A stretch of DNA of 32,000 nucleotides. It comes from Halalkalibacterium halodurans (GTDB lineage Bacteria > Bacillota > Bacilli > Bacillales > Bacillaceae_D). Made by a program: the position numbers and the translations under genes. The first letter of the stretch is position 1; each line of letters begins with the position of its first letter. Where the stretch lies: NCBI RefSeq assembly GCF_004376175.1, contig NZ_SNUY01000014.1, positions 30,777 to 62,776 of the forward strand, given 5' to 3'. Shown here one piece after another: positions 1 to 13,773 of this stretch. The notes under the pieces are model-generated. The model ran no database searches. It saw nothing but the letters and a program-made list of their open reading frames with translations, and was not told the DNA's origin.

Positions 1-498
1 GGGGGGAGGATAGAGGTCAATGGTCAGCCTATCACAGATAAGCACATTGATCATTACCGCCAGCTCTTTTCTACAGTGTTCTCAGATTTTTATCTTTTCG
101 AGCAATTTATTGGTATCTCAGAAGACAAAGTAAAAGAGGAAGCGGAAGAGTACCTGCGGCTTCTTCAACTAAATCATAAGGTAAAGGTTGAAGAAGATCG
201 CTTATCAACAACAGATCTGTCAGGAGGACAAAGGAAGCGACTTGCGTTGTTAGTTTCATATCTGGAGGATAGACCATTTTATGTATTTGATGAATGGGCG
301 GCAGATCAGGATCCGCTGTTCAAAGACTTCTTTTATACAAAACTTCTACCAGCTTTGAAAGGTAAGGGCAAGACGGTGCTTGTAATCTCACATGATGATA
401 AATATTTCAACGTGGCGGACAGAATCATTAAGATAGACTACGGGCAAGTGATAAAAGATGAGCCTATTGAAGCACTATCACAGCAAGCAGCTGAGTAA
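1..498 (+). CDS. ABC transporter, C-terminal ATP-binding domain only (cyclic-peptide/siderophore-type exporter, SyrD/PvdE-like); 5' end is off-window
   Basis: Frame 1 is open from base 1 (GGRIEVNGQPITDKHIDHYRQLF...). ABC signature LSGGQRKR, Walker B FYVFDEWAADQD, H-loop VISHDD. Lies directly upstream of an MbtH gene. Confidence 0.85.
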   Translation, partial: GGRIEVNGQPITDKHIDHYRQLFSTVFSDFYLFEQFIGISEDKVKEEAEEYLRLLQLNHKVKVEEDRLSTTDLSGGQRKRLALLVSYLEDRPFYVFDEWAADQDPLFKDFFYTKLLPALKGKGKTVLVISHDDKYFNVADRIIKIDYGQVIKDEPIEALSQQAAE

Positions 499-577
499 TC
501 GGTGGGTTGCCACATATGCTATTTAAGTAATAGAAGATTCATTATACAGAAACTTCATTGAAAGGGGGTGATAAACC

Positions 578-787
578 ATGGAGAACACAAACATCCAATA
601 TAAAGTTGTATACAATCACGAAGAACAGTACTCAATTTGGCCAGCTCATAGAGAGCTGCCGAACGGATGGTTTGAGGAGGGTACGATTGGAGAGAAGGAA
701 GAATGTCTTCAACGGATCGAGGAAGTATGGACAGATATGAGACCACTAAGTCTAAGAAAGCAACTATCTAAGGCTGAAGGCAATTAA
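578..787 (+). CDS. MbtH-like protein (NRPS adenylation-domain chaperone)
   Basis: 69 aa with the diagnostic pattern YKVVYNHEEQYSIWPAHRELPNGW...CLQRIEEVWTDMRPLSL. SD GGGGGTGA lies 6-7 nt before the ATG. Confidence 0.9.
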   Translation: MENTNIQYKVVYNHEEQYSIWPAHRELPNGWFEEGTIGEKEECLQRIEEVWTDMRPLSLRKQLSKAEGN

Positions 788-838
788 TATAAAGCTTTAT
801 ACATGTATTGATCTTTTAAAAAGGGGTGCATACGTGAG

Positions 839-1264
839 GTGAGCAACACTAGATATGAAGAAAAGTTACCTGATCTCTATTCTCTTAATAGAGATCAGGC
901 TCAGCAGCATATTCTGAAATACCTAGAGCAGCTATTAATCGAACATACTGAATATGATGCGCAGCTCGAGATCGAAAATGTGAAGATCATGGAATGGGTA
1001 CAGGACTCATTAACAGCAATTAAGCTAAAGGCACACATAGAAAAAGATATAGGAATAGAGATAGACGTATCTGAACTGTTTGAAGAGCAATCACTATTAC
1101 AGTTAACAGCAATGATGATTGACCTCGTAGATGAACTGAGGCATTCATCCAGCTCTTCTATTGATTCGGGTGAGGAAAAGGATTTCTTCACTGAAGAGCT
1201 ACAAAAGATGAGTGACGAAGAGATCAATGAATTATATGAACAAATACAAAAAAGCAAGTCATAA
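839..1264 (+). CDS. Stand-alone carrier protein (PCP/ACP-like) with a Ser/Asp/Glu-rich C-terminal tail
   Basis: Phosphopantetheine-site-like motif VQDSLTAIKLKAHIEKDIGIEIDVSELF followed by a helix-III-like LLQLTAMMIDL. GTG start. The ~43-aa tail reads RHSSSSSIDSGEEKDFF...EEINELYEQIQ. Confidence 0.65.
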   Translation: MSNTRYEEKLPDLYSLNRDQAQQHILKYLEQLLIEHTEYDAQLEIENVKIMEWVQDSLTAIKLKAHIEKDIGIEIDVSELFEEQSLLQLTAMMIDLVDELRHSSSSSIDSGEEKDFFTEELQKMSDEEINELYEQIQKSKS

Positions 1265-1323
1265 ACGGATATTTTACAGGAAGAAGCTATAAATTCCTTA
1301 ATATTGAGGGGTGAGATAAAGAT

Positions 1324-2061
1324 TTGCAGACAAAAGGTGTAATTGTAACAGGTGGTTCAAGGGGGATAGGAAGGGCAACAGTAGAATTGCTAGCAAGAGA
1401 AGGAGTTGATGTTGCTTTTACCTACAACACAAACCATGAAGCCGCACAGGAAGTATGCGAATGCACAAAGCATGACAAAGGGAGAGTCAAGGGATTTCAA
1501 GCTAGTGCAAAATCGTTCAGTGAAGCAAAAGAAGTCGTTCATGAAATGACAGCATTTTTAGGGAGAATAGATGGCTTAGTACTGAATGCAGGAATAAATA
1601 AGGATATGCCGTTAATGATGATGAGCGAAGAAGACTGGGACAATGTCATTACTACAAACATTGGTGGTGTATTCAATTATACGAAGCCTGTTATTTATCA
1701 GATGATGAAGCAAAAGCATGGAAAAATTGTCTGTATCACATCCGTCAGTGGCTTAAAAGGGATATCTGGTCAGACAAATTATTCAGCTTCAAAAGCAGCA
1801 CAAATTGGCTTTGTCCGTTCTCTATCAAAAGAGGTCGCACGATTTAACATTAACGTTAATGCTATTGCACCAGGGTTTATCGAAACGGATATGTGGTCTT
1901 CAATTGCTCAAAAGCAGAGGGAGGAGATTCAACAGGAGATTCCCTTCGGTAGACCAGGAAAAGTAGATGAAGTATCAGAGGTGATTAAGTTTTTATTATC
2001 TGATAAATCAAGCTATATGACTGGAAGTGTCATTGTTGTTGATGGTGGCTTAAGCTCATAA
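1324..2061 (+). CDS. 3-oxoacyl-ACP reductase-type SDR (FabG-like ketoreductase)
   Basis: TGGSRGIGRA cofactor motif, NAGI, and the catalytic S...YSASKAA triad. TTG start after SD GAGGGGTGAG. Confidence 0.9.
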   Translation: MQTKGVIVTGGSRGIGRATVELLAREGVDVAFTYNTNHEAAQEVCECTKHDKGRVKGFQASAKSFSEAKEVVHEMTAFLGRIDGLVLNAGINKDMPLMMMSEEDWDNVITTNIGGVFNYTKPVIYQMMKQKHGKIVCITSVSGLKGISGQTNYSASKAAQIGFVRSLSKEVARFNINVNAIAPGFIETDMWSSIAQKQREEIQQEIPFGRPGKVDEVSEVIKFLLSDKSSYMTGSVIVVDGGLSS

Positions 2062-2152
2062 CCAACAATGGCTATACATTGATATACGCTTGACTAATAC
2101 AAGGATGGGCACGAATTGAACATCTAAATACACAAATCTTGGAGGGATAATA

Positions 2153-2404
2153 ATGAAAATTTTAAAGGAAGATTTAAAAGAATTAATCGTAGAAATCATT
2201 GAGGAAGAGGATTTACAAGATACGGATCATTTTGTTGACGATCTTGGTGTAGACTCGATGATGGCTATTGAAATTGTCGCACAAATCGAAAAGAAATATA
2301 AAATTACAATTTCAGAAGAATACTTACCAAAAGTAACTTCATTGAATGACGTTTATGAAGTGGTCACAAATATTGTGGAAAGCACTGTAGTAAAAGAAGG
2401 GTAG
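2153..2404 (+). CDS. Acyl carrier protein
   Basis: 83 aa, acidic, with the DDLGVDSMMAIEIV phosphopantetheinylation motif. SD GGAGGG is upstream. Confidence 0.85.
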   Translation: MKILKEDLKELIVEIIEEEDLQDTDHFVDDLGVDSMMAIEIVAQIEKKYKITISEEYLPKVTSLNDVYEVVTNIVESTVVKEG

Positions 2405-2408
2405 CTCA

Positions 2409-3626
2409 ATGGAAAGAAAGAGAATTGTCATAACTGGAATAGGTGTACTTACTCCTATCGGTTCAGGAAAAGAAGTGTTCTGGGAGAATTTATGTCAAGG
2501 TAAAGTTGGAACAGAAGAAGAAGTGACAGCCTTTAATACAGAAAAATTTGACTGTCATATTGGTGGAGAAGTAAGAGATATTGATCCTGAACAGTTTTTT
2601 GAAAAGAATGCTCCTAGCTTAGTAGGGAGAACGACCCAGCTAGCAGTGGCTGCTGCAAAGATGGCTGTCAAAGATGCTAACATACCAGATTTCTGTGCAA
2701 ATGCTGATAGAGTCTCAGTTTGTATGGGCACGACAATGGGAAACAATAGCGTGATTGAAAAGTATCATGAGAACAGTTTAACGAGTGAGCAAGAAGCGAG
2801 TACCGAGTATATGACAAATTATTCTCTAAATCGGTTATCTTCAGTCGTTGCAGAAGAACTAGGCGCAGAAGGGACATGTATGGTGGTCCCTACTGCCTGC
2901 GCCGCAGGAAACTATGCGATTGGACTTGGAAAGGATTTGATTGAAGAAGGGAAAGCAGATAAGGCCATTGTAGGTGGTGCTGATGCAATGTCCCGTGTCA
3001 TATACACAACATTTTCTCGTTTAGGTGCGATGGCTCAAAGCGCTTCAAAGCCCTTTGATAAAAATAGAGACGGCATTAATGTGAGTGAAGGAGCAGGAGT
3101 ATTAGTTTTAGAGGATTATGAAAAGGCTAAACAACGAGGGGCAAGAATATATGCCGAGCTGCTTGGGCATGGATTAGCATGTGATGCACATCATCCCACA
3201 GCGCCTCACCCTGAAGGAGAAGGGGCTGAACAAGCAATTAAAAAGGCTCTCATCGACGCAGGAATATCTGTTGAAGATGTTTCATATATAAATGCACACG
3301 GAACGGGTACAAAAGCGAATGATCAAACAGAATCGATGGCGATTAAAAATGTTTTTGGCCCATACGCTGACCAAGTTCCTGTTAGTTCAGTTAAATCGAT
3401 GTTAGGCCATACTATGGGGGCAGCAAGTGCGATAGAAGCAATCGTCTGTACCCTATCAATCTATCACTCACTTATTCCCCCAACGATGAATATCGAAGTT
3501 CTGGATGAAGAATGTTTAAGTAGTGTGGTTGTAAAAGAGCCTATAGCAAAGCCGGTGAAATTCGCTATTAGTAATTCATTCGCCTTTGGTGGGAACATTT
3601 CGATTATATCTTTAGGGAGTGTATAA
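2409..3626 (+). CDS. Beta-ketoacyl synthase (KS-alpha/FabF-like, catalytically complete)
   Basis: Active-site Cys in VVPTACAAGNYAIG, His in ACDAHHPTAP and His in INAHGTGT. C-terminal NSFAFGGNI. Confidence 0.9.
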   Translation: MERKRIVITGIGVLTPIGSGKEVFWENLCQGKVGTEEEVTAFNTEKFDCHIGGEVRDIDPEQFFEKNAPSLVGRTTQLAVAAAKMAVKDANIPDFCANADRVSVCMGTTMGNNSVIEKYHENSLTSEQEASTEYMTNYSLNRLSSVVAEELGAEGTCMVVPTACAAGNYAIGLGKDLIEEGKADKAIVGGADAMSRVIYTTFSRLGAMAQSASKPFDKNRDGINVSEGAGVLVLEDYEKAKQRGARIYAELLGHGLACDAHHPTAPHPEGEGAEQAIKKALIDAGISVEDVSYINAHGTGTKANDQTESMAIKNVFGPYADQVPVSSVKSMLGHTMGAASAIEAIVCTLSIYHSLIPPTMNIEVLDEECLSSVVVKEPIAKPVKFAISNSFAFGGNISIISLGSV

Positions 3627-4883
3627 ATGATGAATGACCTACAGGATCCAATAGTTATAAGTGGAATTGGTCAGGTTTCACCGTATGGGATTGATAAGGA
3701 GCTATTATGGAACGTACTGTTTAAAACAAAAAGCGAAATTGATCAACTGAAAAAAAGTAGGATTGGAAACATTGATGAGGAGAATGGTTTATTCATTCCC
3801 TCCGATTGGAATCCAAAAGAGCTATTAGGTAAACGTGGGCTCCAATTCTTGAATGCGAGTACTAAGTATCTAATGGCTGCGACTAATCTAGCTCTAGAGC
3901 ATGCACAATTATCTAGCGAAACGGTAAATGCCGAAGAATTAGGAGTCGTTGTAGGCTGCAACTATACAGGATTAGCCGTTTCAATAGAATATGATCAAAT
4001 CGCAATTACGGAAGGGCCAAGATACGTTAGCCCAATGCAAGCTCCAAATATTTTAGCAAATGCTCCTGCATCTCACTTAGGGATTAGGGTACAGGCTCAA
4101 GCTTGTAATACAACGATATCTACCGGTCAATGTGCGGGCTTAGATGCACTCGGCTACAGTATGAACCTACTAAAAAGAAACAGGGCCAAATATGTCATCG
4201 TTGGTGGTGTTGAAGAGTTAAACGAAAGTGTCATACAGTACCTCAAGCGTTCGGACCATACTCCTAAGAATATGACTGATAAACAAGGGATACCGTATGC
4301 ACCAGATTCAGCTGGAATTCTGCCTAGTGAGGGAGCTGTCACGGTCATACTAGAAAGAAAATCTACTGCAATCGATAGAGGAATCCAACCTTTAGCAGAG
4401 CTGGTTTCTTGGGATAATGTGTTTGCTGCACGGAAGGACGAATCTCATCGAGTTGCAGCGGTGAGAAGAGCACTAACCTCTGTAGTAAATGCAGCTTCAG
4501 CATCCATAGAAGATATAGGCCTGATATTTTCAGGGGCAAATGGGGACTATGAAATAGATCGAGTAGAACTGCTCGCATTGCAAGAACTACTAGAAATGGG
4601 AGAAAAGCAAGTGAATAGCCCTAAGGTTTTTCCTATCAAATCAGTAGTAGGAGAGGCATTTGGTGCGAGCGGTTTGTTTCAACTGTCAGGAGCTTTAGGC
4701 TTTTTAAACAAAAAGAAATGGCCAAGCCCGTATGGAAATGATGCGGATCAAGTTGATCCAACCTTTGCCTCTCTACTGAACTATAATCAAGCGTGGACTG
4801 AAGAAAATGAATGTCCATATATTGCGCTTACTTCCCATAGCCGATCAGGAGAAACGAGTGCAATCCTTATTCGTTCAACATAG
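3627..4883 (+). CDS. KS-beta / chain-length-factor-like ketosynthase paralogue (active-site Cys replaced by Gln, catalytic His residues absent)
   Basis: ISTGQCAGLDALG aligns with the TACAAGNYAIG of the preceding KS, placing Gln at the Cys position. FSGANGDYE occupies the place of NAHGTGT. Its start abuts the KS stop (TAAATGATG). Confidence 0.8.
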   Translation: MMNDLQDPIVISGIGQVSPYGIDKELLWNVLFKTKSEIDQLKKSRIGNIDEENGLFIPSDWNPKELLGKRGLQFLNASTKYLMAATNLALEHAQLSSETVNAEELGVVVGCNYTGLAVSIEYDQIAITEGPRYVSPMQAPNILANAPASHLGIRVQAQACNTTISTGQCAGLDALGYSMNLLKRNRAKYVIVGGVEELNESVIQYLKRSDHTPKNMTDKQGIPYAPDSAGILPSEGAVTVILERKSTAIDRGIQPLAELVSWDNVFAARKDESHRVAAVRRALTSVVNAASASIEDIGLIFSGANGDYEIDRVELLALQELLEMGEKQVNSPKVFPIKSVVGEAFGASGLFQLSGALGFLNKKKWPSPYGNDADQVDPTFASLLNYNQAWTEENECPYIALTSHSRSGETSAILIRST

Positions 4884-4924
4884 ATTTAACAAGATGAACA
4901 GTGGAAAGAAGGAGTGGTATATGA

Positions 4925-5371
4925 ATGGATCAGAACCTTAGTTATGAACAAGTGCGATCTCTGCTACCTCAAAAACATCCCTTTATCTTCATAGATACAG
5001 TAGAGCAGATAGAGCCAGATAACAGAATTGTATGTGTTAAAAATCTGACAGGGAATGAGTGGTACGTTCCAGGCCATTTCCCTGACCAAACCGTTTTTCC
5101 GGGAGTGTTACTCGTTGAGGCGATGGCTCAATCAGGTATTTTATTATACAAGCTAAGTCAGGAGGATATCAGTAGTACTGAGAAACAACAGTTTCTTCTA
5201 TCAGGAGTGAAAGTGCGCTTTTTAAATCCGGCTGTACCAGGTAATCAAATCAGAATTGAAACAGAGTATGTCAAAATGACGGCAAATGCTGGGATTGTAA
5301 CGTCAACAGGCTGGGTTGGTGAATCAAAAATTGCTAAAGCAGATATTACGCTTGCAATATCTAATAAATGA
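4925..5371 (+). CDS. FabZ/FabA-type hot-dog fold beta-hydroxyacyl-ACP dehydratase
   Basis: HFPDQTVFPGVLLVEAMAQ motif. 148 aa. SD GAAGGAG is upstream. Confidence 0.85.
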   Translation: MDQNLSYEQVRSLLPQKHPFIFIDTVEQIEPDNRIVCVKNLTGNEWYVPGHFPDQTVFPGVLLVEAMAQSGILLYKLSQEDISSTEKQQFLLSGVKVRFLNPAVPGNQIRIETEYVKMTANAGIVTSTGWVGESKIAKADITLAISNK

Positions 5372-5382
5372 GGATGGATGCA

Positions 5383-7110
5383 ATGAATAATTCGTTTAAC
5401 CGCTTAACGGATGTTATCTTATCAAAACGTAACGTGCACGACAGAGGAATCACATTTATTAAGGAGGAAAATATAGAGCATTTCGTATCCTATCATGACC
5501 TTCTGGACTCAGCTCTATCAATCACTGGGTACCTTCAGCAGGTTGGAATCAAACCAGGAGATGAGGTTGTTTTACAAACGGAAGATGTTGAGCAATTTGT
5601 ATATGCTTACTGGGCGTGTATATTAGGGGGATTTGTACCTGTACCGTTAAGTATTGGTGTGAATAAAGATCAACGTTTAAAGTTGTTGAACGTATGGGAG
5701 TACCTCAACAACCCGTTCTTACTTACGAACGAAAAAAATACCCAGAGATTAGTGCGTTTTGCACAAAAATATTCCGTCACACAGCAATTTAAGCCGATAT
5801 TAGAAACAAAAATAATCATTGAACAGGCGGTCGAACAGGGTTCACCTGGATCGGTTTACACCCCAGAAGTGGACGATGTGGCGATGATACAGTTTTCTTC
5901 AGGGTCAACAGGGAGACCTAAAGGGGTGGCACTAACTCATCTAAATGTAATGACAAATATTAAAGACATTATTAGTGTAGGTCGAAATAAATGGGCTGAT
6001 GACAGATTTGTTAGTTGGTTACCAATGACACATGATTTTGGGCTTATTGCGCTACATTTGTTTCCGTTAACAGCGAACGCAAATCATATGATTATGCCAA
6101 CACAGATGTTTATCATGTCGCCGTTACTATGGTTACGCAAAGCGAGTGAGTATAAGGCAACATGTCTAGCTTCTCCTAACTTCGGCTATCAGTACCTACT
6201 TAAATATCTTCAAGCATCGCGACTGAATCAATCGAAGTTAGATTTGTCGTCTGTAAGGTATATTTTCAATAGCGCAGAACAAATATCGCCTCAATTAGCT
6301 CGGTTATTTGTTGAAGCGTTGGAACCTTACAATTTAAAAAGAAATGTAATTGTTCCAGCCTACGGCCTAGCAGAAGCAAGCGTAGCAGTTACAGTCTGTG
6401 AATTGTTTCAACCAATGAAAACGTATGCCATCTCCCGTGATCAGTTAGATATTGGTTCAGAAATTCAAGAGGTACAGCAAGGTGGACTTGAATTAGTTGA
6501 TTTAGGAAAATCCTTGCCGTCTGTTTCTATCAGGGTTTGTGATGATCAAGATAATGACCTTGGTGAAGATAGAATTGGACATATCCAAATGAGAGGGAAA
6601 AATGTAACCAAAGGCTATTATAATAGCCCGGAAAGAAATGAACAATTATTTACACATGACGGTTATCTTAGAACGGGTGACATCGGATTTATTAAAGAAG
6701 GGAGCCTTGTTATAACTGGAAGAAAAAAGGATTTGGTTATAATTAATGGTCAAAATCTATATCCTTATGATATTGAAAGAGTGGCAGAAGAAGTTGAAGG
6801 ATTAGAATTAAATACGTTTGCTTGCACTAGTGTTTATAATGACCAACTTGGCGAAGAAGAAGTGATTGGATTTTTGTTACATAGAGGCGACCTAAAAGAT
6901 ATCGTTCAACTAGCCCAAAAAGTCCAAAAGCATATCAAAGAACAAATGGGAGTGTTGTTAAAACAGTTCATTCCTGTGAAAAACATCCCTAGAACAACAA
7001 GCGGAAAAATTCAACGTTATCAATTAGCGAAAGATTATGTACAAGGCGTTTATGATCAACAAATACAGGAATTTAACAAACTTTGTATGCACGAGTCTAC
7101 AACGTTATAG
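5383..7110 (+). CDS. Fatty-acyl-AMP ligase (FAAL, FadD32-like adenylating enzyme). Start is ambiguous: ATG 5368 overlaps the dehydratase stop, ATG 5383 has the better SD.
   Basis: Adenylation core motifs FSSGSTGRPKGV, YGLAEA, TGDIG, GRKKDLVIINGQNLYP and PRTTSGKIQR. LPMTHDFGLI resembles the FAAL-typical HDMGLI. Confidence 0.85.
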   Translation: MNNSFNRLTDVILSKRNVHDRGITFIKEENIEHFVSYHDLLDSALSITGYLQQVGIKPGDEVVLQTEDVEQFVYAYWACILGGFVPVPLSIGVNKDQRLKLLNVWEYLNNPFLLTNEKNTQRLVRFAQKYSVTQQFKPILETKIIIEQAVEQGSPGSVYTPEVDDVAMIQFSSGSTGRPKGVALTHLNVMTNIKDIISVGRNKWADDRFVSWLPMTHDFGLIALHLFPLTANANHMIMPTQMFIMSPLLWLRKASEYKATCLASPNFGYQYLLKYLQASRLNQSKLDLSSVRYIFNSAEQISPQLARLFVEALEPYNLKRNVIVPAYGLAEASVAVTVCELFQPMKTYAISRDQLDIGSEIQEVQQGGLELVDLGKSLPSVSIRVCDDQDNDLGEDRIGHIQMRGKNVTKGYYNSPERNEQLFTHDGYLRTGDIGFIKEGSLVITGRKKDLVIINGQNLYPYDIERVAEEVEGLELNTFACTSVYNDQLGEEEVIGFLLHRGDLKDIVQLAQKVQKHIKEQMGVLLKQFIPVKNIPRTTSGKIQRYQLAKDYVQGVYDQQIQEFNKLCMHESTTL

Positions 7111-7169
7111 TAGAACAGTTGTTATAAAGGAGCATACACCTTATAACAATTGATTAAGGAGGAAATGCG

Positions 7170-8531
7170 ATGAATTATCTGAATATAAAGACTACCCTTC
7201 CGGGGCCTCGCTCCAAAGAAATTTTAAATGAAAAGAATTCAGTGGCAAGAGCATTCGGTACATTTGTACCAGCAATAATAGATTATGCTCGTGGTGCCCA
7301 AGTGTGGGACCTAGATGGAAATCAATTCATCGATCTTGCTGGAGGAGTAGGTTCGTTAAACGTGGGACATAGTCATCCAAAAGTGGTTGACGTTATACAA
7401 AAGCAAGCGGATAAATTTACACATACAGACTTCACAGTTATTCCTTATCAATCCTATTTTAAACTAGCAGAAAGACTCTGTTCCAAAATGCCTGGAGTTG
7501 AAGAAAAAAAAGCATGTTTCTTTAATTCTGGTACAGAGGCAGTTGAAAATGCGATAAAGATTGCACGGAAAGCAACAGGACGCAGGTCTGTCATTTGCTT
7601 TAAAGGAGCCTTTCATGGGAGAACGATGCTGTCATTATCGCTTACGAGCAAGATAAAGCCTTATAAAGAAGGAATGGGTCCATTCTTCAATGATATCTAT
7701 CGTGTCCCTTATCCTTACGTGTACCGTTGGGAGGATAGGGTCTGCTCAGAAGAAGTATCAAATCGAGCAATAAAAATGTTAAAGGAATTGTTTGTTAAGC
7801 AGGTTGATCCAAATGATGTCGCAGCACTGATAATCGAGCCGATTCAAGGAGAAGCAGGCTTTATTAATCCACCTATGCCTTATCTCCATCAAGTTCAGGA
7901 AGTATGTAATGAGTATGGTATCGTTTTCATAGTCGATGAGGTTCAAACAGGATACGGGAGAACGGGATGCTTTTTAGCGTCTGAATACTATGGTATCGAA
8001 CCAGACTTAATCACGTTAGGAAAATCTATCGCTGCTGGCCTTCCGCTTTCAGCCATTATCGGAAAAGAAAGAATCATGGACAGTGCAGGTGATGGAGCGG
8101 TTGGTGGTACATTTGTTGGAAATCCGATTGCCTGTACTGCAGCACTTGCAGTGCTAGACATATACGAAGAAGAAAACCTAGGTGAGCGGGCGAATAAAAT
8201 AGGAGAAAAGATTGATCAATGGTTGCATCAATTGAAGAATAAATCACACCTTATTGGTGATATACGTGGAGTAGGAGCAATGAAAGCTTTTGAGCTTGTA
8301 AGAGACCACGAGACAAGAGAGCCAGCAGATGAAGAAACGTATGAAATTATTCAGCGCTGTTTGCATAAAGGGGTCATTCTATTTAAAGCAGGATTATATA
8401 ACAATGTAATAAGGTTTTTAGTTCCGTTGGTGATTACTGACGATCAACTAGAAGAAGCGCTAGACGTGATAGAAGAGTGTGTAATCGAAGTCACGCATCA
8501 ATATGAACGTCAGACGGTCGCTCATGGGTAA
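7170..8531 (+). CDS. Class III PLP aminotransferase, GabT (omega-amino acid:2-oxoglutarate) family. The present stop codon is supplied by the IS end.
   Basis: GGVGSLNVGHSHPKV, SGTEAVENAIKIAR, DEVQTGYGRTG and TLGKSIAAGLP (PLP Lys) are collinear with GabT as I recall it. The last 5 nt (8527-8531) belong to the inserted IS. Confidence 0.9.
   Translation: MNYLNIKTTLPGPRSKEILNEKNSVARAFGTFVPAIIDYARGAQVWDLDGNQFIDLAGGVGSLNVGHSHPKVVDVIQKQADKFTHTDFTVIPYQSYFKLAERLCSKMPGVEEKKACFFNSGTEAVENAIKIARKATGRRSVICFKGAFHGRTMLSLSLTSKIKPYKEGMGPFFNDIYRVPYPYVYRWEDRVCSEEVSNRAIKMLKELFVKQVDPNDVAALIIEPIQGEAGFINPPMPYLHQVQEVCNEYGIVFIVDEVQTGYGRTGCFLASEYYGIEPDLITLGKSIAAGLPLSAIIGKERIMDSAGDGAVGGTFVGNPIACTAALAVLDIYEEENLGERANKIGEKIDQWLHQLKNKSHLIGDIRGVGAMKAFELVRDHETREPADEETYEIIQRCLHKGVILFKAGLYNNVIRFLVPLVITDDQLEEALDVIEECVIEVTHQYERQTVAHG
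8519..8526. repeat. Target-site duplication CGCTCATG (left copy) of the IS6-family element
   Basis: An identical 8-mer is found at 10360-10367, immediately outside the two inverted repeats. Confidence 0.8.
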
Positions 8532-8598
8532 TGTCAAAAGTTCTATGAAAACTCACTAGGCATTCAGTTCTTTTCTCTTTTGTGGGTGGAGGAGCCCC

Positions 8599-8748
8599 GC
8601 AATCGCTCTTGACAAACACGCCAATGGTTTTGACTAAGGCTAAACAAGGGCGAAGGGGACAAAAGAAGGCATACCAAATAGCCCTTGGTTATTTCCATTT
8701 TAAACCATTGGCAAGTTCGGTTTGTCAAGAGTTCGCTACGCCGATTGC
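8599..8748. repeat. ~150-nt imperfect palindrome inside the IS, between the IR and the transposase stop
   Basis: Three matched arm blocks pair: GCAATCG/CGATTGC, CTCTTGACAAAC/GTTTGTCAAGAG and CCAATGGTTT/AAACCATTGG. An inner pair TAAACAAGGGC/GCCCTTGGTTA adds to the stem. Confidence 0.7.
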
Positions 8749-8775
8749 TGATGTTAGGGCTCAGCTAAACAAAAG

Positions 8776-10209
8776 CTAGGCAGTCTGATCAATCAACCAT
8801 TGTTGAGCTAAGTCAATCAGCTTGGTCCAGCGTGCTGGCATGTTTGGAAGTTGTTCTAACTCTGGAATGAGAACAGGAACTTTACCTTCCAAGGCTGAAT
8901 GCGGTCTTAGAAAGTTGAAGTAAGCCACAAATAAGGTCACAAATGATACGGATCCTTGTTCTGACCCGAATCCGTGAGTGGATCGGTAGTTGCCTTTAAA
9001 GGTTCGATTCAGTCTCTCAATAATCTGTTTTAGCGGTCTATATTCCTTGGAGACTTCATCTTCATTGGTTAAGCCGATGACTTGTATTACGTCAAATGGA
9101 ATCTCATGTTGGGAAAAGAAATGCTGTGCTAACAAGTAGATTGGGTTTCCATCGACAACGAATGTAAGGTTCTCAGGAATCTCTTTCAGCTTAAGTAATA
9201 CTTCGTCAATCGCTCGAATGGCGGTCGCTGTGTCTCGATTTGGTGAGACAGGGTATGAGAGAATCACCTTTTTCACCGCATCAAAAAAGAAAAACAGATA
9301 GTGCCAACGACCATTCACACGGATATACGTTTCGTCACCACAGAATTGATCTGAAAGCTCATAAGGGTAGTGGTCGACGTAAGGCTTAAGCGTAAGTGCT
9401 ACACTGTTTTCGTAGTTTAAAATGCTTTGGTGAGAAATGGATACACCATGAATATCTTTCATCAGTGCAGCTGTTTTACGAGCGGATAGCCCGTAATTCA
9501 CGTGATACGTCAGAATGAGTCCAAGTGTATGTGGAGACACATAAAGCCTTGATAAATCGACTTTTGGCTTCTTGGGTGAATGTTTCGCTAACGGTTGATA
9601 GTCAATGTGAAACTGGCGGTAAATATACCGCATTTTAAAGGCTTGAGGGTCTTCTTTGAACCGTTTTTTCTCTTTTTGTGACATTCTACTCAATTTCTTT
9701 TGGTAGTAGGAACAGTCATTGTTTTTACACTTAAACACATTAAAGTCTTTTCTTTCCTTGATTTTTTCAAGAGTCTTGGCACAGTGAGGGCACTTAAGGA
9801 TGGCCTCTTTGAGATAGCGGCTTTTTTGATTAAAAAGACAGGAACACACCTTACATTGAAACTGTCCTTTCCCTCCATTATTGGCATACAAATACTCGGA
9901 TGGAGCACCACACTTTGGACATTTCATTGACGCAGGAACAGGTGTTGAATTAGAACGTCTCTGTACCGGTTTAAGAGGCTTTCCATTCGCCGCCAGATGC
10001 TCAGTTAATAACTGTTTAAAATCAAGTTTTTCTGGTACTTCAATGATCGGCAGATCGTCGACTTGAAGTTTCCGATAAGGTTTGTTCACTGGCGCTTCTA
10101 TTGGCTTATCAAACATGCTTTTCCCAATCAGTAGGGTAAGCAACGTTCGAATCATTTGTTCTTGATAGTTTATTAACATAAGTAAATAGGTTATAATTTG
10201 AGGTAACAA
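8776..10209 (-). CDS. IS6-family DDE transposase with N-terminal Cys-rich zinc-finger region
   Basis: GDETYIRVNGRWHYLFFFFD closely resembles the IS26 DETYVKVNGRWAYLYRAVD, followed by VDGNPIY and IERLNRTFK...HGF. The N-terminus carries CPKCG...CKVC...CPHC...CKNNDC. TTG start. Confidence 0.85.
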   Translation of the reverse strand: MLPQIITYLLMLINYQEQMIRTLLTLLIGKSMFDKPIEAPVNKPYRKLQVDDLPIIEVPEKLDFKQLLTEHLAANGKPLKPVQRRSNSTPVPASMKCPKCGAPSEYLYANNGGKGQFQCKVCSCLFNQKSRYLKEAILKCPHCAKTLEKIKERKDFNVFKCKNNDCSYYQKKLSRMSQKEKKRFKEDPQAFKMRYIYRQFHIDYQPLAKHSPKKPKVDLSRLYVSPHTLGLILTYHVNYGLSARKTAALMKDIHGVSISHQSILNYENSVALTLKPYVDHYPYELSDQFCGDETYIRVNGRWHYLFFFFDAVKKVILSYPVSPNRDTATAIRAIDEVLLKLKEIPENLTFVVDGNPIYLLAQHFFSQHEIPFDVIQVIGLTNEDEVSKEYRPLKQIIERLNRTFKGNYRSTHGFGSEQGSVSFVTLFVAYFNFLRPHSALEGKVPVLIPELEQLPNMPARWTKLIDLAQQWLIDQTA

Positions 10210-10359
10210 CTTGTCACATCCTTTTTTCTTAAGGGGATTGATGTCGTGTGGTTACCTCATCAATACCTTAGAATTCAGGGGGGTGGCAAGTTTTTTGCTT
10301 ATAAAGCCCTCTAATATAGGATTTATTAACCTATTTCTATATAAAGTTTTGACAATACG

Positions 10360-10367
10360 CGCTCATG
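10360..10367. repeat. Target-site duplication CGCTCATG (right copy)
   Basis: See 8519-8526. Confidence 0.8.
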
Positions 10368-10383
10368 TAGGGGGGATAGGCAG

Positions 10384-11856: not shown

Positions 11857-11966
11857 GGCTATGATTTCTAAGAATCACTTGGAACGTAGCTTTCGAAGGG
11901 GAGAAAAAGACTTGATTATCTCCAATCAAATCATTTATCCATCTTGCAACAACGAATACGGTAAGC

Positions 11967-12104
11967 TTGAAAAAAGTGATCGTATGTCCACCAAAGTATT
12001 TAAGAATCGAAGAAATTATTAATGAAACTCAGCGTTACTATCAAAGTAAAAACAACCTCTTAAAGAGTCGGAAAGCGATGAAACAGTATCATCAGTTTTT
12101 TTAG
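11967..12104 (+). pseudogene. Possible N-terminal fragment (~45 codons) of an amidinotransferase/DDAH-fold (YkgA-like) enzyme, truncated
   Basis: (L)KKVIVCPPKYLRIEEIINETQ...KAMKQYHQFF* resembles the VVVCxPxxxxIxxxINxxQ...A..QH..F N-termini of that fold. The similarity is short and weak. Confidence 0.25.
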
Positions 12105-12174
12105 AGGTACCAAAATGAGGTAGAGGTTATATGCACATAACCCCTGTCAAGTAGACAATGAAAAAAAGAGTATT

Positions 12175-12225
12175 TTAAGCTGCGGCCTTTTCTCGGTATT
12201 CAATCGGGGAAAGGCCTTTAAATTT
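12175..12225 (-). pseudogene. Very short C-terminal remnant of an IS3-family transposase (OrfB end)
   Basis: KFKGLSPIEYREKAAA* resembles the conserved L-K-G-L-S-P-V-E-Y-R end of IS3/IS150 OrfB. Only ~16 codons remain. Confidence 0.3.
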
Positions 12226-12660
12226 GGCTCTACAATAAATGTTGGGGTTTTCGCTCAAAAGAGGAAAAAAATGCACACAGGCTCCTTTATCCATTATCCT
12301 TGAATTGCCTAGAAACAAAGAAAGGATAGGAGCTGCGTGTACGATGAATTTTACCATGGATTTGCCCGGATTAAAAGGTGTGAAGGTCACAAAGATGGAG
12401 GAACGAGAGGACTATATCGCACTCCATTTAGAAATGCCGCGAACGCCTCATTGTTGCCATCCTGTGGGAGAGAACCGAAAGAATTCATAATAATCGTATT
12501 CAAAAAGTTCAATCTCAAGCTCTTTGAACGGCGGATGTATCTCTATTCTTATCGAAAGCGCCGGTACGCGTGGTAGATGCGGAAAGCGGTTTATGTTGAT
12601 ATCGTATCTGGGAAACCGTTGTTTAGCTCTAAGGATAAGATGCTGGCTACGGTTGGCCAA
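12226..12660 (+). mobile_element. Decayed 5' part of an ISL3-family element (left IR plus frameshifted transposase N-terminus)
   Basis: A GGCTCT... end at 12226 looks like an ISL3 IR. From ATG 12344 the reading frame gives MNFTMDLPGLKGVKVTKMEEREDYIALHLEMPRTPHCC, then stops and frameshifts. ...FKKFNLKLFERRMYLYSYRKRRYAW continues in another frame. Confidence 0.55.
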
Positions 12661-13089
12661 GCTTTACCAAACCAATCGATGAAGAAGAAATTATTCAAAA
12701 AGAAGATCGTAGTCACGGAATGATTCGGGCTTAGGTGCGAAGTAAGCAGGCGGATTCTTATTTAGGTACGTATTTCCAGATGGCCCTGGACCGAACGGTC
12801 TAAGTACTGCATTTTAACTCGGATGCCTCCAAAGGCTGACCTTGAGAAAGAAGGATACGGAAAGTACAAAGAATTAATTAGAACACTTGGCGGTATGCCA
12901 AGTGTTCATGCGAAAAGTATCGATTTCTGGCACTTTGCCCTTTTACAGAAGTGATATAAGAAATAATTCAGACTATAACCGATACTAAATCCGATCATCG
13001 GGTAACACGTAACGATTATACGTTCCAATCGGTTCGGAAAGTTAAGAAAGCGCTAACGATCCAGTAGAAATAATCATCCTATGAGAGCC

Positions 13090-13773
13090 TTAAAAGGCTG
13101 TAACAATTGTTTCCAAGGAAATTCGCTGAACACTTTTTGGGAAGTGTGGATGGCTCTGACATACAGCTAATTTATATTGTGGATCAACTTCATATTGCCT
13201 AAAATAGGCAGGTATCTGCTCTTGAACTGAACTGAAATATACCTGACTATTTATGACTCTGCAGCTAAACGAATTGAGTGGAATAGAAAGCCCTTTTCCT
13301 ACCATTTTAATATAGCTTTCTTTGAGTGACCATAAATCATAGAAATAGGATTGCTTAGCTTTGCCTGTTTTCTCTTCTAGATCCCGAATCTCTGATTCCG
13401 AAAAAAAGCGCTCTGCAATCTCAAATTCAATCGGCCGGACTTGTTCTATATCTATGCCAACTGGTTGATCATCAGTAGCACAGACTACCCAATTTCCGGA
13501 ATGTGAAATGTTGAAATGGAACGATGGCAGCCCTTTGACGAAAGGCTTTCCGTATGTATTGGTTTCGAACTGAATTTGGTCATTAGATATTTGAAGTTCC
13601 GTACGGATGATCTTTCGTACCAGCAGATCCGCCACTAAGCTCCGCAACGCATCTTCACGAAAAACGAATCGTTGAATTGTTTTTTGTTTCTCTTCGGAGA
13701 GCTCGGATAGCAAACGATGATATTGTCCTTCTGTAACATTGTAGTCTAATTGAATTGCATAAATACGGGACAT
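13090..13773 (-). CDS. sfp: Sfp-type 4'-phosphopantetheinyl transferase
   Basis: 227 aa with GKPF...FNISHSGNWVVCA...VGIDIE...WSLKESYIKMVGKGL motifs. Confidence 0.9.
   Translation of the reverse strand: MSRIYAIQLDYNVTEGQYHRLLSELSEEKQKTIQRFVFREDALRSLVADLLVRKIIRTELQISNDQIQFETNTYGKPFVKGLPSFHFNISHSGNWVVCATDDQPVGIDIEQVRPIEFEIAERFFSESEIRDLEEKTGKAKQSYFYDLWSLKESYIKMVGKGLSIPLNSFSCRVINSQVYFSSVQEQIPAYFRQYEVDPQYKLAVCQSHPHFPKSVQRISLETIVTAF

What the first reader, a model, noticed from the sequence alone, without database searches (positions are those of the whole stretch)
1..13773. Highly-reducing type II PKS/FAS-like cassette attached to an NRPS-type cluster in a Bacillales-like genome
MbtH and a cyclic-peptide-type ABC exporter normally accompany NRPS genes, which would lie upstream, off-window. 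They are followed co-directionally by discrete KR, ACP, KS, CLF-like KS, FabZ-like DH and FAAL genes, with an Sfp-type PPTase closing the locus. Discrete KS/CLF plus KR plus DH sets build polyene or cinnamoyl acyl units in actinomycete pathways (ishigamide, asukamycin/colabomycin, skyllamycin) and in Gram-negative aryl-polyene loci. I know of no characterised equivalent feeding a lipopeptide in Bacillaceae. The gene order and tight spacing (2404/2409, 3626/3627, 5371/5368) indicate a single operon.
Basis: partly seen in the sequence, partly recalled or inferred. Interest (0 to 1): 0.8.

Follow-up and report, generated by a model that had tools for sequence, protein, structure and literature searches.

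The report
Discrete polyketide cassette inside a Bacillus peptide cluster
The window holds the tail end of a strain-specific peptide-antibiotic-type gene cluster of Halalkalibacterium halodurans, in which stand-alone fatty-acid/polyketide-like enzymes probably build the lipid cap of the peptide; it is an uncharacterised variant of a known design, and this copy has been damaged by mobile elements.

Summary
Window 1-7110 encodes, co-directionally and tightly spaced:
- the C-terminus of a cyclic-peptide ABC exporter, then MbtH;
- a FabG-like KR, an ACP and a KS with its catalytic residues intact;
- a KS-like partner lacking Cys/His/His (CLF-like), and a FabZ-like DH;
- a FAAL-like loading adenylation enzyme.
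An Sfp-type PPTase lies at 13090-13773 on the minus strand.

The predicted upstream NRPS exists. A contig 99.99% identical to the window carries NRPS genes ending C-A(Thr)-PCP-C-A(Ser)-PCP-TE directly before the exporter.

The KS groups with the ishigamide highly-reducing type II KS, not with FabF. It is not cispentacin-type.

KR-ACP-KS-CLF-DH is a portable five-gene cassette found in 24 loci of the species-representative genome set, in Bacillales, Ktedonobacteria/Chloroflexia and one Acidobacteriota MAG, often next to NRPS genes.

The GabT-like aminotransferase (7170-8531) and the aldehyde dehydrogenase (10384-11856) are conserved cluster members. They belong to the NRPS family rather than the cassette, because a Cytobacillus firmus-type cluster keeps them and lacks the cassette.

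In this strain a 1833-bp IS splits the aminotransferase from the dehydrogenase, and a DDAH-like gene is truncated.

I found no characterised member. Verdict: a new variant of a known kind, of moderate interest.

The parts
1..498 (+). C-terminal 165 aa of a cyclic-peptide-type ABC exporter (533 aa in the intact contig L032)
   Evidence: PF00005 and TIGR01194 hits; full-length gene at L032 8320-9921
578..787 (+). MbtH-like NRPS accessory protein (69 aa)
   Evidence: PF03621, 67 bits; conserved at the same position in L001, L003, L006, L026, L030, L034
839..1264 (+). 141-aa stand-alone carrier protein (QDSL serine motif). Present only in the window/L032 and L001, together with the adenylation enzyme
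   Evidence: PF00550 partial hit, 28.5 bits; 61% identical homologue in L001, absent from L003/L006/L026/L030
1324..2061 (+). FabG-like beta-ketoacyl-ACP reductase (KR)
   Evidence: adh_short_C2 204 bits; TIGR01830 275 bits, below the 297.75 cut-off; YxxxK motif read in the sequence
2153..2404 (+). Dedicated acyl carrier protein (83 aa, DSM motif)
   Evidence: PF00550, 45 bits; below every housekeeping ACP cut-off
2409..3626 (+). Ketosynthase with catalytic Cys164, His262, Lys329 and His297 intact
   Evidence: Pfam; active-site alignment; PDB best hits 9S5H_B 376 bits, Iga11 324 bits, FabF about 307 bits; tree
3627..4883 (+). KS-like partner without condensation residues (Gln at the Cys position, Lys and Gly at the two His positions): chain-length-factor-like subunit
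   Evidence: AlphaFold model pLDDT 81.5 with a FabF-like fold
4925..5371 (+). FabZ/FabA-like dehydratase (His and Glu motifs present)
   Evidence: PF07977; FabZ NF000582 112.1 bits against a 113 cut-off, AmcE 87 bits against 140; precomputed ApeI/ApeP-like hits on the orthologues
5368..7110 (+). Stand-alone FAAL-like loading adenylation enzyme. It is 41-45% identical to the N-terminal A domain of NRPSs that follow the same cassette in Lysinibacillus, Cytobacillus and Cohnella
   Evidence: PF00501; PDB best hits McyG 4R0M 317 bits, StsA 6ULW 303 bits, FAALs 3PBK/3KXW about 215 bits
7170..8531 (+). GabT-like class-III aminotransferase. The last residues are replaced by the IS insertion (453 aa here, 458 aa in the IS-free allele)
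   Evidence: PF00202 417 bits; TIGR00700 525 bits, above the 506.65 cut-off; E. coli GabT 391 bits with Arg141/Lys268/Arg398 equivalents conserved
8527..10359 (-). 1833-bp insertion sequence (477-aa DDE transposase at 8776-10209). It has imperfect terminal inverted repeats and an 8-bp target duplication CGCTCATG at 8519-8526 and 10360-10367
   Evidence: Pfam DDE_Tnp_IS240, NCBIfam IS6-like; inverted repeats; IS-free allele L032
10384..11856 (+). Aldehyde dehydrogenase with Glu/Cys catalytic motifs, nearest to the ALDH7/Pcd and GucD types. In the IS-free allele its ATG overlaps the aminotransferase stop codon
   Evidence: PF00171 540 bits; NCBIfam GucD 467 bits against 770, P6C dehydrogenase 435 against 730; PDB; L032 17966/17969
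11888..12146 (+). Remnant (about the first 88 of 293 codons, frameshifted) of a DDAH/arginine-deiminase-family gene that follows the dehydrogenase in L001
   Evidence: tblastn with the L001 protein, 46% identity over 84 aa plus 72% over 29 aa in another frame; Pfam on the L001 protein
12172..13089 (.). Non-coding debris, probably the edge of a repeated mobile element. Contig L032 ends exactly at window 12171
   Evidence: The resemblance to an ISL3 transposase N-terminus is from memory only; there was no database hit
13090..13773 (-). Sfp-type 4'-phosphopantetheinyl transferase. The homologous B. cereus plasmid cluster carries a 40%-identical one
   Evidence: PF22624 + PF01648; tblastn with the B. 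cereus cluster PPTase

Best explanation
Window 1-13773 is the downstream half of a strain-specific nonribosomal-peptide gene cluster of Halalkalibacterium halodurans.

Shown:
- An NRPS ending in Thr and Ser modules plus a thioesterase lies directly upstream of the exporter on a 99.99%-identical contig.
- The exporter and MbtH are followed by a self-contained five-gene set, KR-ACP-KS-CLF-like-DH.
- The KS of this set belongs to the highly-reducing type II PKS lineage (with ishigamide Iga11), not to FabF.
- The KS partner has lost the Cys/His/His catalytic residues.
- The same five genes, in the same order, occur as a portable cassette in 24 loci of the species-representative genome set (Bacillales, Ktedonobacteria/Chloroflexia and one Acidobacteriota MAG), about half of them beside NRPS genes.

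Inferred:
- The KS/CLF-like heterodimer elongates a starter with malonyl-ACP. Malonyl transfer would be done by the housekeeping FabD.
- KR and DH process each beta-keto group.
- No ER is encoded, so the chain is unsaturated unless FabI/FabL acts in trans.
- The resulting acyl chain is condensed onto the first amino acid of the NRPS, giving an N-acylated (lipo)peptide that the ABC transporter exports.
- In the H. halodurans lineage a stand-alone FAAL-like adenylation enzyme and a 141-aa carrier protein are added. The enzyme is the free-standing counterpart of the A domain of the A-CP-C loading region that follows this cassette in Lysinibacillus, Cytobacillus and Cohnella. The pair therefore either primes the KS with a dedicated starter acid or re-loads the finished acid for the starter condensation domain.
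- The Sfp-type PPTase activates all carrier proteins.
- The translationally coupled GabT-like aminotransferase and ALDH7/GucD-like dehydrogenase (plus the DDAH-like enzyme) belong to the NRPS family, not to the cassette. They most likely convert an omega-amino compound derived from a basic amino acid into a carboxylate building block or cosubstrate for the peptide.
- In this strain the cluster is partly disabled: an IS separates the dehydrogenase from the operon, and the DDAH-like gene is truncated.
For: - Gene content and motifs.
- Upstream NRPS on a 99.99%-identical contig.
- Synteny with L001 (65-89% identity), Metabacillus arenae, 'B. thuringiensis s1930', Cytobacillus purgationiresistens and B. 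cereus plasmid pVKMB-370_1, the last with a full NRPS set plus PPTase and type II thioesterase.
- KS tree: cassette KS clade 100%, separated with Iga11 and 9S5H_B from FabF 100%.
- All four FAS-like proteins fall below the FabF/FabG/FabZ/ACP equivalog cut-offs.
- Cassette conserved in 24 genome loci.
- The A enzyme is 41-45% identical to the N-terminal A domain of A-CP-C-A-PCP NRPSs placed directly after the cassette.
- The B. cereus relative's first NRPS begins with a condensation domain (HHxxxDG at residue 137).
- The cassette-less orthologous cluster L034 keeps MbtH-AMT-ALDH.
- No internal + strand terminators.
- IS boundaries and the IS-free allele.
Against: - No product is known for any member, so chain length, degree of saturation and site of attachment are all inferred.
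- The first NRPS module of the H. halodurans cluster was not retrievable, so a starter condensation domain is shown only in relatives.
- The KS partner is not homologous to the established CLFs Iga12 (40.6 bits) or act CLF (67 bits) beyond the general fold. Heterodimer formation was not tested.
- Absence of an ER gene does not prove a polyene (FabI acts in trans in cispentacin synthesis, PMC10698177).
- The order of action of the A enzyme/CP relative to the cassette is unresolved.
- The function of the aminotransferase-dehydrogenase pair is a guess from family resemblance.
- The tree uses only four FabF-type outgroups and no aromatic or aryl-polyene KS.
Confidence: 0.62

Rival explanations
1. 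The cassette plus the aminotransferase makes a polyketide-derived beta-amino acid, in the manner of Adda or cispentacin. The KS produces a beta-ketoacyl-ACP and the class-III aminotransferase aminates it using an omega-amine donor such as Lys, Orn or GABA. The dehydrogenase then removes the semialdehyde by-product, and the NRPS incorporates the beta-amino acid.
For: - Precedent: AmcC, a class-III aminotransferase, aminates an ACP-bound beta-keto acid using Orn/Lys (PMC10698177).
- AMT-ALDH lie immediately after the cassette and are translationally coupled.
- The ALDH resembles aminoadipate-semialdehyde/P6C dehydrogenases.
- The A enzyme's best solved relative is the McyG loading domain of the Adda pathway.
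Against: - The orthologous NRPS cluster L034 (Cytobacillus firmus type) keeps MbtH-AMT-ALDH at 73%/67% identity but has no KR/ACP/KS/CLF/DH at all.
- Conversely, cassette-plus-NRPS loci of the other subtype have no AMT/ALDH.
- The aminotransferase keeps both carboxylate-binding arginines of GabT. This suggests free omega-amino acid / 2-oxoglutarate substrates.
Confidence: 0.1
2. The locus is an evolutionary relic in this strain and makes no finished product. The IS insertion is polar on the dehydrogenase, and the DDAH-like gene is destroyed. This rival is compatible with the best explanation for the intact ancestor.
For: - IS at 8527-10359 on the opposite strand, between genes that are translationally coupled in the intact allele.
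- DDAH-like gene reduced to about 88 frameshifted codons followed by debris.
- The window carries further IS copies and split genes.
Against: - All other ORFs of the cluster are intact.
- The perfect 8-bp duplication and a single mismatch to the IS-free allele indicate a very recent insertion.
- The ALDH keeps its own ribosome-binding site and could be read from an outward IS promoter.
- The DDAH-like gene is equally truncated in the IS-free contig.
Confidence: 0.3
3. The five genes make a free polyene or aryl-polyene-like lipid or pigment that is not attached to the peptide. Their position in the NRPS operon would reflect co-regulation only.
For: - Several cassette loci (Brevibacillus, Tumebacillus and Ktedonobacteria MAGs) show no NRPS within 10 kb.
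- The DH orthologues carry ApeI/ApeP-like Pfam hits.
- The KR gives a partial hit to the flexirubin reductase FlxB.
Against: - In five related loci the cassette sits between MbtH and NRPS-family accessory genes.
- In five other loci an NRPS follows the cassette, and in three of them it starts with a loading A-CP-C region directly after the DH.
- The window has no thioesterase, lipid-transfer or outer-membrane export genes typical of aryl-polyene loci.
Confidence: 0.1
4. The genes are a cispentacin / coronafacic-acid-type KS-CYF system that builds a cyclopentane carboxylate from 2-oxoglutarate.
For: - The gene inventory overlaps: ACP, KS, KS partner, hot-dog protein, adenylating enzyme and class-III aminotransferase.
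- Weak NCBIfam hits to AmcB, AmcF and AmcE.
Against: - All Amc hits fall below their cut-offs: AmcF 254 against 325, AmcE 87 against 140, AmcB 38 against 80.
- The KS partner gives no AmcG hit, and is instead a full-length KS-fold protein.
- An extra KR is present.
- The adenylation enzyme groups with NRPS loading domains.
Confidence: 0.03
5. The genes are a duplicated housekeeping FAS II set (FabG, AcpP, FabF, FabZ) supplying ordinary fatty acids.
For: The best family names are FabG/FabF/FabZ, and PGAP annotates the relatives that way.
Against: - All scores are below the equivalog cut-offs.
- One 'FabF' lacks every catalytic residue.
- The KS clade is separate from FabF with 100% bootstrap.
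- No FabD, FabH or FabI is encoded.
- The set is embedded in an NRPS operon on a strain-specific island.
Confidence: 0.03

Closest known systems
Ishigamide highly-reducing type II PKS (Iga10-16; KS/CLF structure PDB 6KXD) and the related polyene or cinnamoyl-forming sets of actinomycete lipopeptides such as skyllamycin and WS9326A (the latter from my own knowledge)
   Same: - Discrete KS with Cys-His-His, an inactive KS-like partner, and dedicated ACP, KR and DH; no ER and no AT.
- The KS is the sister lineage of Iga11 in the tree and scores 324 bits against it.
- The cassette is coupled to an NRPS, as in the cinnamoyl lipopeptides.
   Different: - The host is a Bacillaceae member.
- The KS partner is not an Iga12 homologue (40.6 bits, against 95 bits to a FabF).
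- The fixed gene order KR-ACP-KS-CLF-DH behaves as a portable cassette.
- A FAAL-like loading enzyme and a second carrier protein are added.
- The product is unknown.
PDB 9S5H/9S5I chains B and C (an unpublished or not retrievable KS / KS-like heterocomplex annotated only as 3-oxoacyl-ACP synthase)
   Same: It is the best solved match for both subunits: KS 376 bits and partner 154 bits. The pairing is the same, an active KS with an inactive partner.
   Different: Identity is only about 45% (KS) and about 30-37% (partner). The partner has Val where the window protein has Gln. I could not identify the organism or pathway.
Cispentacin / coronafacic acid type II PKS-like system (AmcB-H; PMC10698177)
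   Same: Both combine discrete ACP, KS, KS partner, hot-dog enzyme, adenylate-forming loader and class-III aminotransferase, and both depend on housekeeping FabD/FabI.
   Different: The curated Amc models are not met. The partner is a full KS fold, not a CYF. A KR is present. The aminotransferase follows the NRPS family, not the KS.
FAAL/ACP lipoinitiation of lipopeptides (for example DptE/DptF of daptomycin and the N-terminal FAAL-ACP of mycosubtilin; from my own knowledge) and the McyG loading A-PCP (PDB 4R0M)
   Same: A stand-alone acid-activating adenylation enzyme is paired with a small carrier protein next to an NRPS. The enzyme is homologous (41-45%) to cis A-CP-C loading regions of related clusters. 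McyG is its best solved relative.
   Different: Here the loader co-occurs with a complete elongation/reduction cassette. Its substrate and its order of action are unknown.
Fusaricidin lipid-tail genes fusB-G of Paenibacillus polymyxa (annotation list in PMC7931354)
   Same: It is a Bacillales lipopeptide cluster carrying discrete DH, KS, aldehyde dehydrogenase and acyl ligase genes beside the NRPS.
   Different: The fus set has a ThDP enzyme and an enoyl reductase, and has no KS/CLF pair, KR, ACP or aminotransferase. I made no sequence comparison.

Membership tests
Highly-reducing (polyene-type) type II PKS | Discrete KS with the Cys-His-His catalytic residues | tested here: met
   Cys164, His262 and His297 (plus Lys329) align with the FabF/Iga11 motifs
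Highly-reducing (polyene-type) type II PKS | Adjacent KS-like partner that lacks the active-site Cys and forms a heterodimer with the KS | tested here: inconclusive
   The partner has Gln/Lys/Gly at the Cys/His/His positions and its gene abuts the KS stop codon. Heterodimer formation was not tested. The partner is not a homologue of Iga12 (40.6 bits)
Highly-reducing (polyene-type) type II PKS | Dedicated ACP, KR and DH in the same operon, with no cyclase/aromatase | tested here: met
   No cyclase-like gene in the window or in L030-L032
Highly-reducing (polyene-type) type II PKS | KS groups phylogenetically with known HR type II KS rather than with FabF or aromatic KS-alpha | tested here: met
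   NJ tree, 100% bootstrap for {cassette KS + Iga11 + 9S5H_B} against four FabF-type enzymes. Bit scores: Iga11 324, FabF 307, act KS 230. Outgroup sampling is small
Highly-reducing (polyene-type) type II PKS | Product is a polyene or otherwise highly reduced linear chain | not testable with these tools
   The only indication is the absence of an ER gene in the window and in relatives
Cispentacin/CFA-type KS-CYF system | AmcF-type KS, AmcG cyclisation factor and AmcE decarboxylase reaching the curated NCBIfam scores | tested here: not met
   AmcF 254.3 against 325; AmcE 87.1 against 140; no AmcG hit for the partner
Aromatic (actinorhodin-type) minimal type II PKS | KS-alpha/CLF pair with a conserved CLF Gln, plus cyclases/aromatases | tested here: not met
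   Gln is present in the window but replaced by Ser (L001) or Lys (Metabacillus) in the nearest relatives. Scores against act KS/CLF are only 230 and 67 bits. No cyclases
Housekeeping type II FAS (FabF, FabG, FabZ, AcpP) | Scores above the NCBIfam equivalog cut-offs, in a primary-metabolism context | tested here: not met
   FabF 406.7 against 493.75; FabG 275.2 against 297.75; FabZ 112.1 against 113; ACP 40 against 71. The genes sit in an NRPS operon on a strain-specific island
Fatty acyl-AMP ligase (FAAL) | Reaches the FAAL family score, and loads a carrier protein rather than CoA | tested here: inconclusive
   NF006624 341.8 against 600. Closer to the McyG and StsA loading A domains (317 and 303 bits) than to the solved FAALs (about 215 bits). 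Homologous to cis A-CP loading domains. The FAAL insertion motif and the substrate were not examined
GABA shunt pair GabT/GabD (primary metabolism) | GabT equivalog score together with a succinate-semialdehyde dehydrogenase, in a catabolic context | tested here: not met
   The aminotransferase passes TIGR00700 (525 against 506.65), but the ALDH fails SSADH (365 against 646). The pair is syntenic with this NRPS family in six or more species
Fusaricidin-type lipid-tail gene set | Homology to FusB-G, including the ThDP enzyme and the enoyl reductase | not tested
   No fus sequences were available. I compared only the gene lists

The most novel reading that the evidence does not exclude
KR-ACP-KS-CLF-DH is a Bacillota/Chloroflexota lineage of highly-reducing type II PKS. 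Its inactive partner subunit arose independently of the actinomycete CLFs. It has spread as a portable five-gene lipoinitiation module that plugs into different NRPS clusters: inserted between MbtH and the aminotransferase here, and placed ahead of A-CP-C loading regions elsewhere. If so, it yields the first polyenoyl or unusually primed lipopeptides of Bacillaceae.
Probability: 0.35. Interest if true: 0.65.

Novelty: new variant of a known kind. Interest (0 to 1): 0.48.

Why it matters
Lipopeptides of Bacillus and relatives (surfactin, iturin, fengycin, polymyxin, fusaricidin) take their lipid from primary fatty-acid metabolism or from modular PKS domains. A discrete, iterative KS/CLF-type machine feeding an NRPS is so far known, to my knowledge, only from actinomycetes.

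If the cassette works as inferred, three things follow:
- It adds a new lipoinitiation route in Bacillota.
- It offers a compact five-gene unit for engineering acyl tails in low-GC hosts.
- It provides a natural series for experiment: Cytobacillus firmus type without the cassette, B. cereus plasmid type with it, and H. halodurans type with an added loader and carrier protein. Comparing these would show what each layer contributes.

The finding also flags an uncharacterised NRPS family with unfamiliar adenylation-domain codes and a conserved aminotransferase / dehydrogenase / DDAH-like trio.

Tried and rejected
- **Cispentacin/CFA-type system.** I considered it first because of the KS + partner + hot-dog + adenylating enzyme + class-III aminotransferase inventory. 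Rejected on the NCBIfam cut-offs and the nature of the partner protein.
- **A neighbouring housekeeping gabT-gabD operon.** I suspected that the aminotransferase and ALDH were merely adjacent primary-metabolism genes. Rejected because the pair is syntenic in all relatives.
- **Aminotransferase aminating the polyketide, with the ALDH scavenging the semialdehyde.** Attractive, but weakened decisively by the cassette-less cluster L034 that keeps AMT-ALDH.
- **Identifying PDB 9S5H.** No paper holds the code. The Foldseek PDB copy, up to April 2026, lacks the entry. Its partner chain is only 30-37% identical to the cassette CLFs.
- **Stachelhaus-type code for the stand-alone A enzyme.** The alignment to GrsA was too poor to trust.
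- **First tree attempts.** One timed out. The combined KS+CLF tree had invalid distances for very divergent pairs, so its deep bootstraps are unusable. Only the KS-only tree is cited.
- **Exact-protein look-ups.** They never returned the NCBI contig of the window's own strain, so the first NRPS modules of this cluster remain unseen.
- **ISL3 identity of the debris at 12172-13089.** Not supported by any database hit.
- **Literature searches for a characterised Bacillales member.** They found none. This is absence in an open-access library, not proof of absence.

Full report
**1. What is in the window**

ORF listing and translation, with Pfam and NCBIfam, give the following co-directional genes on the + strand:
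- 1-498: C-terminus of a cyclic-peptide-type ABC exporter
- 578-787: MbtH
- 839-1264: a 141-aa carrier protein
- 1324-2061: FabG-like KR
- 2153-2404: ACP
- 2409-3626: KS
- 3627-4883: KS-like protein
- 4925-5371: FabZ-like DH
- 5368-7110: AMP-binding enzyme
- 7170-8531: class-III aminotransferase

After these come a transposase on the minus strand (8776-10209), an aldehyde dehydrogenase (10384-11856), about 1.2 kb without intact genes, and an Sfp-type PPTase on the minus strand (13090-13773).

No + strand terminator-like site lies between 1 and 8600. The cluster region has 37-43% G+C (about 40% on average), against mostly 44-48% in the part of the window beyond 16 kb.

**2. Source organism**

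Exact-sequence look-up shows that the window is from Halalkalibacterium (Bacillus) halodurans. The flanking YafY regulator and PBP2 are within the same 90%-identity clusters as proteins BH1889 (BAB05608) and BAB05613 of the reference strain C-125. The KS, adenylation enzyme, aminotransferase and PPTase occur on a single NCBI contig (62,776 bp) and a few metagenome or SRA assemblies. The cluster is therefore a strain-specific island whose right edge lies between 13773 and about 14150.

**3. The upstream NRPS**

Contig L032 (Logan SRR31300264) was retrieved through the exact MbtH sequence. It matches window 1-8526 with one mismatch and window 10360-12171 without any. Its first 9.4 kb are therefore a valid proxy for the sequence upstream of the window. 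They encode:
- the end of a 1057-aa C-A-PCP NRPS;
- a 2498-aa NRPS, C-A-PCP-C-A-PCP-TE, whose adenylation codes read DFWNIGMVHK (Thr) and DVWHISLVDK (Ser);
- after 58 bp, the 533-aa exporter.

**4. IS damage**

The same comparison defines a 1833-bp insertion sequence at 8527-10359. It has imperfect terminal inverted repeats and an 8-bp target duplication, CGCTCATG.

In the IS-free allele the aminotransferase is 458 aa and its stop codon overlaps the ATG of the dehydrogenase (ATGA). The two genes are therefore translationally coupled. In the window the aminotransferase ends five residues early, and the dehydrogenase is cut off from the operon.

Directly after the dehydrogenase, tblastn finds the first ~88 codons of a DDAH/arginine-deiminase-family gene, frameshifted. 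This gene is intact (293 aa) after the dehydrogenase in relative L001. L032 ends at window position 12171, which suggests a repeated element starts there. Nothing in 12172-13089 matches a family.

**5. Nature of the KS pair**

- The KS keeps Cys164, His262, Lys329 and His297. The partner has Gln, Lys and Gly at the Cys and His positions.
- The Gln, reminiscent of aromatic CLFs, is replaced by Ser in the closest relative (L001) and by Lys in Metabacillus. Decarboxylative priming is therefore not a conserved property.
- Against solved structures the KS scores 376 bits with 9S5H_B, 324 with the ishigamide KS Iga11, about 300-307 with FabF enzymes, 230 with the actinorhodin KS and 181 with 6QSP (a beta-ketoacyl synthase; from memory, the aryl-polyene KS ApeO).
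- The partner scores 154 bits with 9S5H_C, 70-95 with FabFs, 67 with the actinorhodin CLF and only 40.6 with Iga12. Its AlphaFold model (pLDDT 81.5) has an ordinary FabF-like fold.
- A KS-only NJ tree with 200 bootstraps makes the 24 cassette KSs monophyletic (100%). Iga11 and 9S5H_B are successive sister branches, and all of these are separated from four FabF-type enzymes (100%). The five NRPS-embedded relatives of the window form their own clade (100%).
- All FAS-like proteins fall below NCBI's equivalog cut-offs, and the cispentacin models AmcB, AmcF and AmcE are also not reached.

The set is therefore a highly-reducing type II PKS-like system by KS ancestry and gene content. Its partner subunit is CLF-like by loss of catalytic residues, but it is not an orthologue of the known CLFs.

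**6. The cassette elsewhere**

A scan of one genome per species returned 24 loci. All but two fragmentary contigs (L017, L029) carry KR-ACP-KS-CLF-DH in the same order, as does every complete locus. They fall into three groups:
- **Subtype A:** NRPS - exporter - MbtH - cassette - aminotransferase - dehydrogenase. Members: the window, L001, Metabacillus arenae, 'B. thuringiensis s1930', Cytobacillus purgationiresistens, and B. cereus plasmid pVKMB-370_1.
- **Subtype B:** cassette followed by an NRPS. Members: Lysinibacillus sphaericus, C. purgationiresistens (a second locus), Cohnella, B. gaemokensis and Gorillibacterium.
- **Others:** loci with a second KR and no nearby NRPS (Brevibacillus, Tumebacillus and an Acidobacteriota MAG), and further loci with no NRPS within 10 kb (several Ktedonobacteria/Chloroflexia, Paenibacillus and Shouchella).

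The complete B. cereus plasmid cluster shows the full design:
- a divergent PPTase and type II thioesterase;
- an ADI-family enzyme and a flavin amine oxidase;
- four NRPS genes with five adenylation domains, the first protein starting with a condensation domain;
- a TauD-type dioxygenase;
- exporter, MbtH, cassette, aminotransferase, dehydrogenase;
- then PadR and an RND pump.

A related but distinct KS/CLF cluster without an NRPS sits on Staphylococcus epidermidis plasmids.

**7. The adenylation enzyme and the second carrier protein**

These two genes occur only in the window/L032 and L001, and always together. The enzyme's best solved relatives are the McyG loading A-PCP (317 bits) and the keto-acid-activating StsA (303 bits), ahead of canonical FAALs (about 215 bits).

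In three subtype-B loci the gene directly after the DH is an NRPS whose N-terminus is A-CP-C-A-PCP. That A domain is 41-45% identical to the window enzyme over about 550 residues. The window enzyme is therefore the free-standing version of a lipoinitiation loading domain that recurrently accompanies the cassette.

Two orders of action remain open. It may load the starter that the KS elongates. Alternatively it may re-activate the finished acid for the condensation domain.

**8. The aminotransferase and the dehydrogenase**

- The aminotransferase passes the GabT equivalog cut-off and keeps the Arg141, Lys268 and Arg398 equivalents of E. coli GabT.
- The dehydrogenase has the hydrolytic ALDH motifs. 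It is nearest to 2-oxoglutarate-semialdehyde, piperideine-6-carboxylate and ALDH7-type enzymes, without reaching any cut-off.
- Aminotransferases of 70% identity or more come from Bacillaceae. Those whose loci I examined sit in this NRPS family. A Paenibacillus ehimensis homologue at 61% lies outside any gene cluster.
- Decisively, a Cytobacillus firmus-type contig (L034) carries NRPS genes orthologous to the last two NRPS genes of the B. cereus plasmid cluster (60-62% identity), then exporter, MbtH, aminotransferase (73%), dehydrogenase (67%), PadR and the RND pump, but no cassette gene at all.

The pair therefore belongs to the peptide pathway, and the cassette looks like an insertion between MbtH and the aminotransferase.

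My best guess is that the pair processes an omega-amine derived from a basic amino acid into a carboxylate building block. It would work with the DDAH-like enzyme and, in B. cereus, with the amine oxidase. The logic resembles the Dav/Gab or LAT/Pcd routes. This is inference from family resemblance only.

**9. Mechanism, with status**

Shown:
- gene content, catalytic motifs, KS ancestry and synteny;
- the upstream NRPS;
- the IS insertion and the intact allele;
- independence of the aminotransferase/dehydrogenase pair from the cassette.

Inferred:
- KS/partner heterodimer, and malonyl loading by FabD;
- iterative KR/DH processing;
- an unsaturated chain, unless FabI acts in trans as it does for cispentacin (PMC10698177);
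- transfer of the acyl group to the first NRPS module, and export by the ABC transporter.

Unknown:
- the starter acid, chain length and product;
- the role of the aminotransferase/dehydrogenase/DDAH trio;
- whether this IS-bearing copy is expressed.

**10. Novelty**

Coupling a highly-reducing type II PKS to an NRPS is established in actinomycetes (my own knowledge). Type II KS-CLF pairs in Firmicutes and Chloroflexi have been catalogued (PMC10132072). I found no characterised member of this cassette family or of this NRPS family. Automated tools would already flag the locus as an NRPS plus HR-T2PKS hybrid.

I therefore rate it a new variant of a known kind, of moderate interest. Its value lies mainly in the natural series of cluster variants and in the portable cassette.

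Noticed in passing
window 8527-10359: A 1833-bp IS (477-aa DDE transposase, IS6/IS240-like domain plus zinc ribbon) with an 8-bp target duplication CGCTCATG. An IS-free allele of the same locus exists in SRR31300264. The identical transposase is present on at least six H. halodurans contigs.
   Followed up: yes
window 11888-12146 and 12172-13089: Truncated, frameshifted 5' end of a DDAH/arginine-deiminase-family gene, followed by about 0.9 kb of non-coding debris. The near-identical contig L032 breaks exactly at 12171, as expected at the edge of a repeated element.
   Followed up: partly
window 25563-28638: An ABC-F type ATPase gene appears split into 25563-26618 and 28069-28638 by an IS256-family element (transposase 26701-27897). 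Its transposase is within the same 90%-identity cluster as copies in other Bacillales genera (Kurthia, Sporosarcina, Cerasibacillus).
   Followed up: partly
window 28846-30403: A GerA-family spore germination gene is divided into two overlapping ORFs (28846-29484 and 29321-30403), which suggests a frameshift. Another DDE transposase lies at 30537-31832 (-). Together with the other IS copies this points to ongoing IS-driven gene decay in this strain.
   Followed up: no
window 15896-16397: A DinB-family ORF covers only 125 aa of a ~165-position profile and is followed by an overlapping short ORF. It may be another disrupted gene.
   Followed up: no
L004/L005 (Staphylococcus epidermidis plasmid contigs), about 3700-17700: A distinct plasmid-borne KS/CLF-type cluster without an NRPS: KAS III, PPTase, AMP-ligase, KR, ACP, KS, CLF-like, two flavoenzymes, a second KR, a methyltransferase, a second ACP and a hydrolase. 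The index lists the protein in 61 blocks of the collection. I know of no described product.
   Followed up: no
L030/L031 (B. cereus VKM B-370 plasmid pVKMB-370_1, NZ_CP070340.1, about 37-73 kb): A complete relative of the cluster on a conjugative 334-kb plasmid. Four of its five adenylation-domain codes are unfamiliar to me (DSVLIAEVW, DPENAGFTC, DAKNLGLSN, DYFYMSQVE). It also carries a TauD dioxygenase, a flavin amine oxidase and an ADI-family enzyme, which suggests non-proteinogenic residues.
   Followed up: partly
PDB 9S5H/9S5I chains B and C: The best solved match to both KS subunits is an entry annotated only as 3-oxoacyl-ACP synthase. No paper in the library holds the code, and the entry is absent from the Foldseek copy. 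Its origin could matter for classifying this KS lineage.
   Followed up: partly
L034 (Logan ERR10087459 contig, Cytobacillus firmus-type): The same NRPS family occurs without the PKS cassette (MbtH directly followed by aminotransferase and dehydrogenase). This gives a natural with/without comparison for the cassette's contribution.
   Followed up: yes
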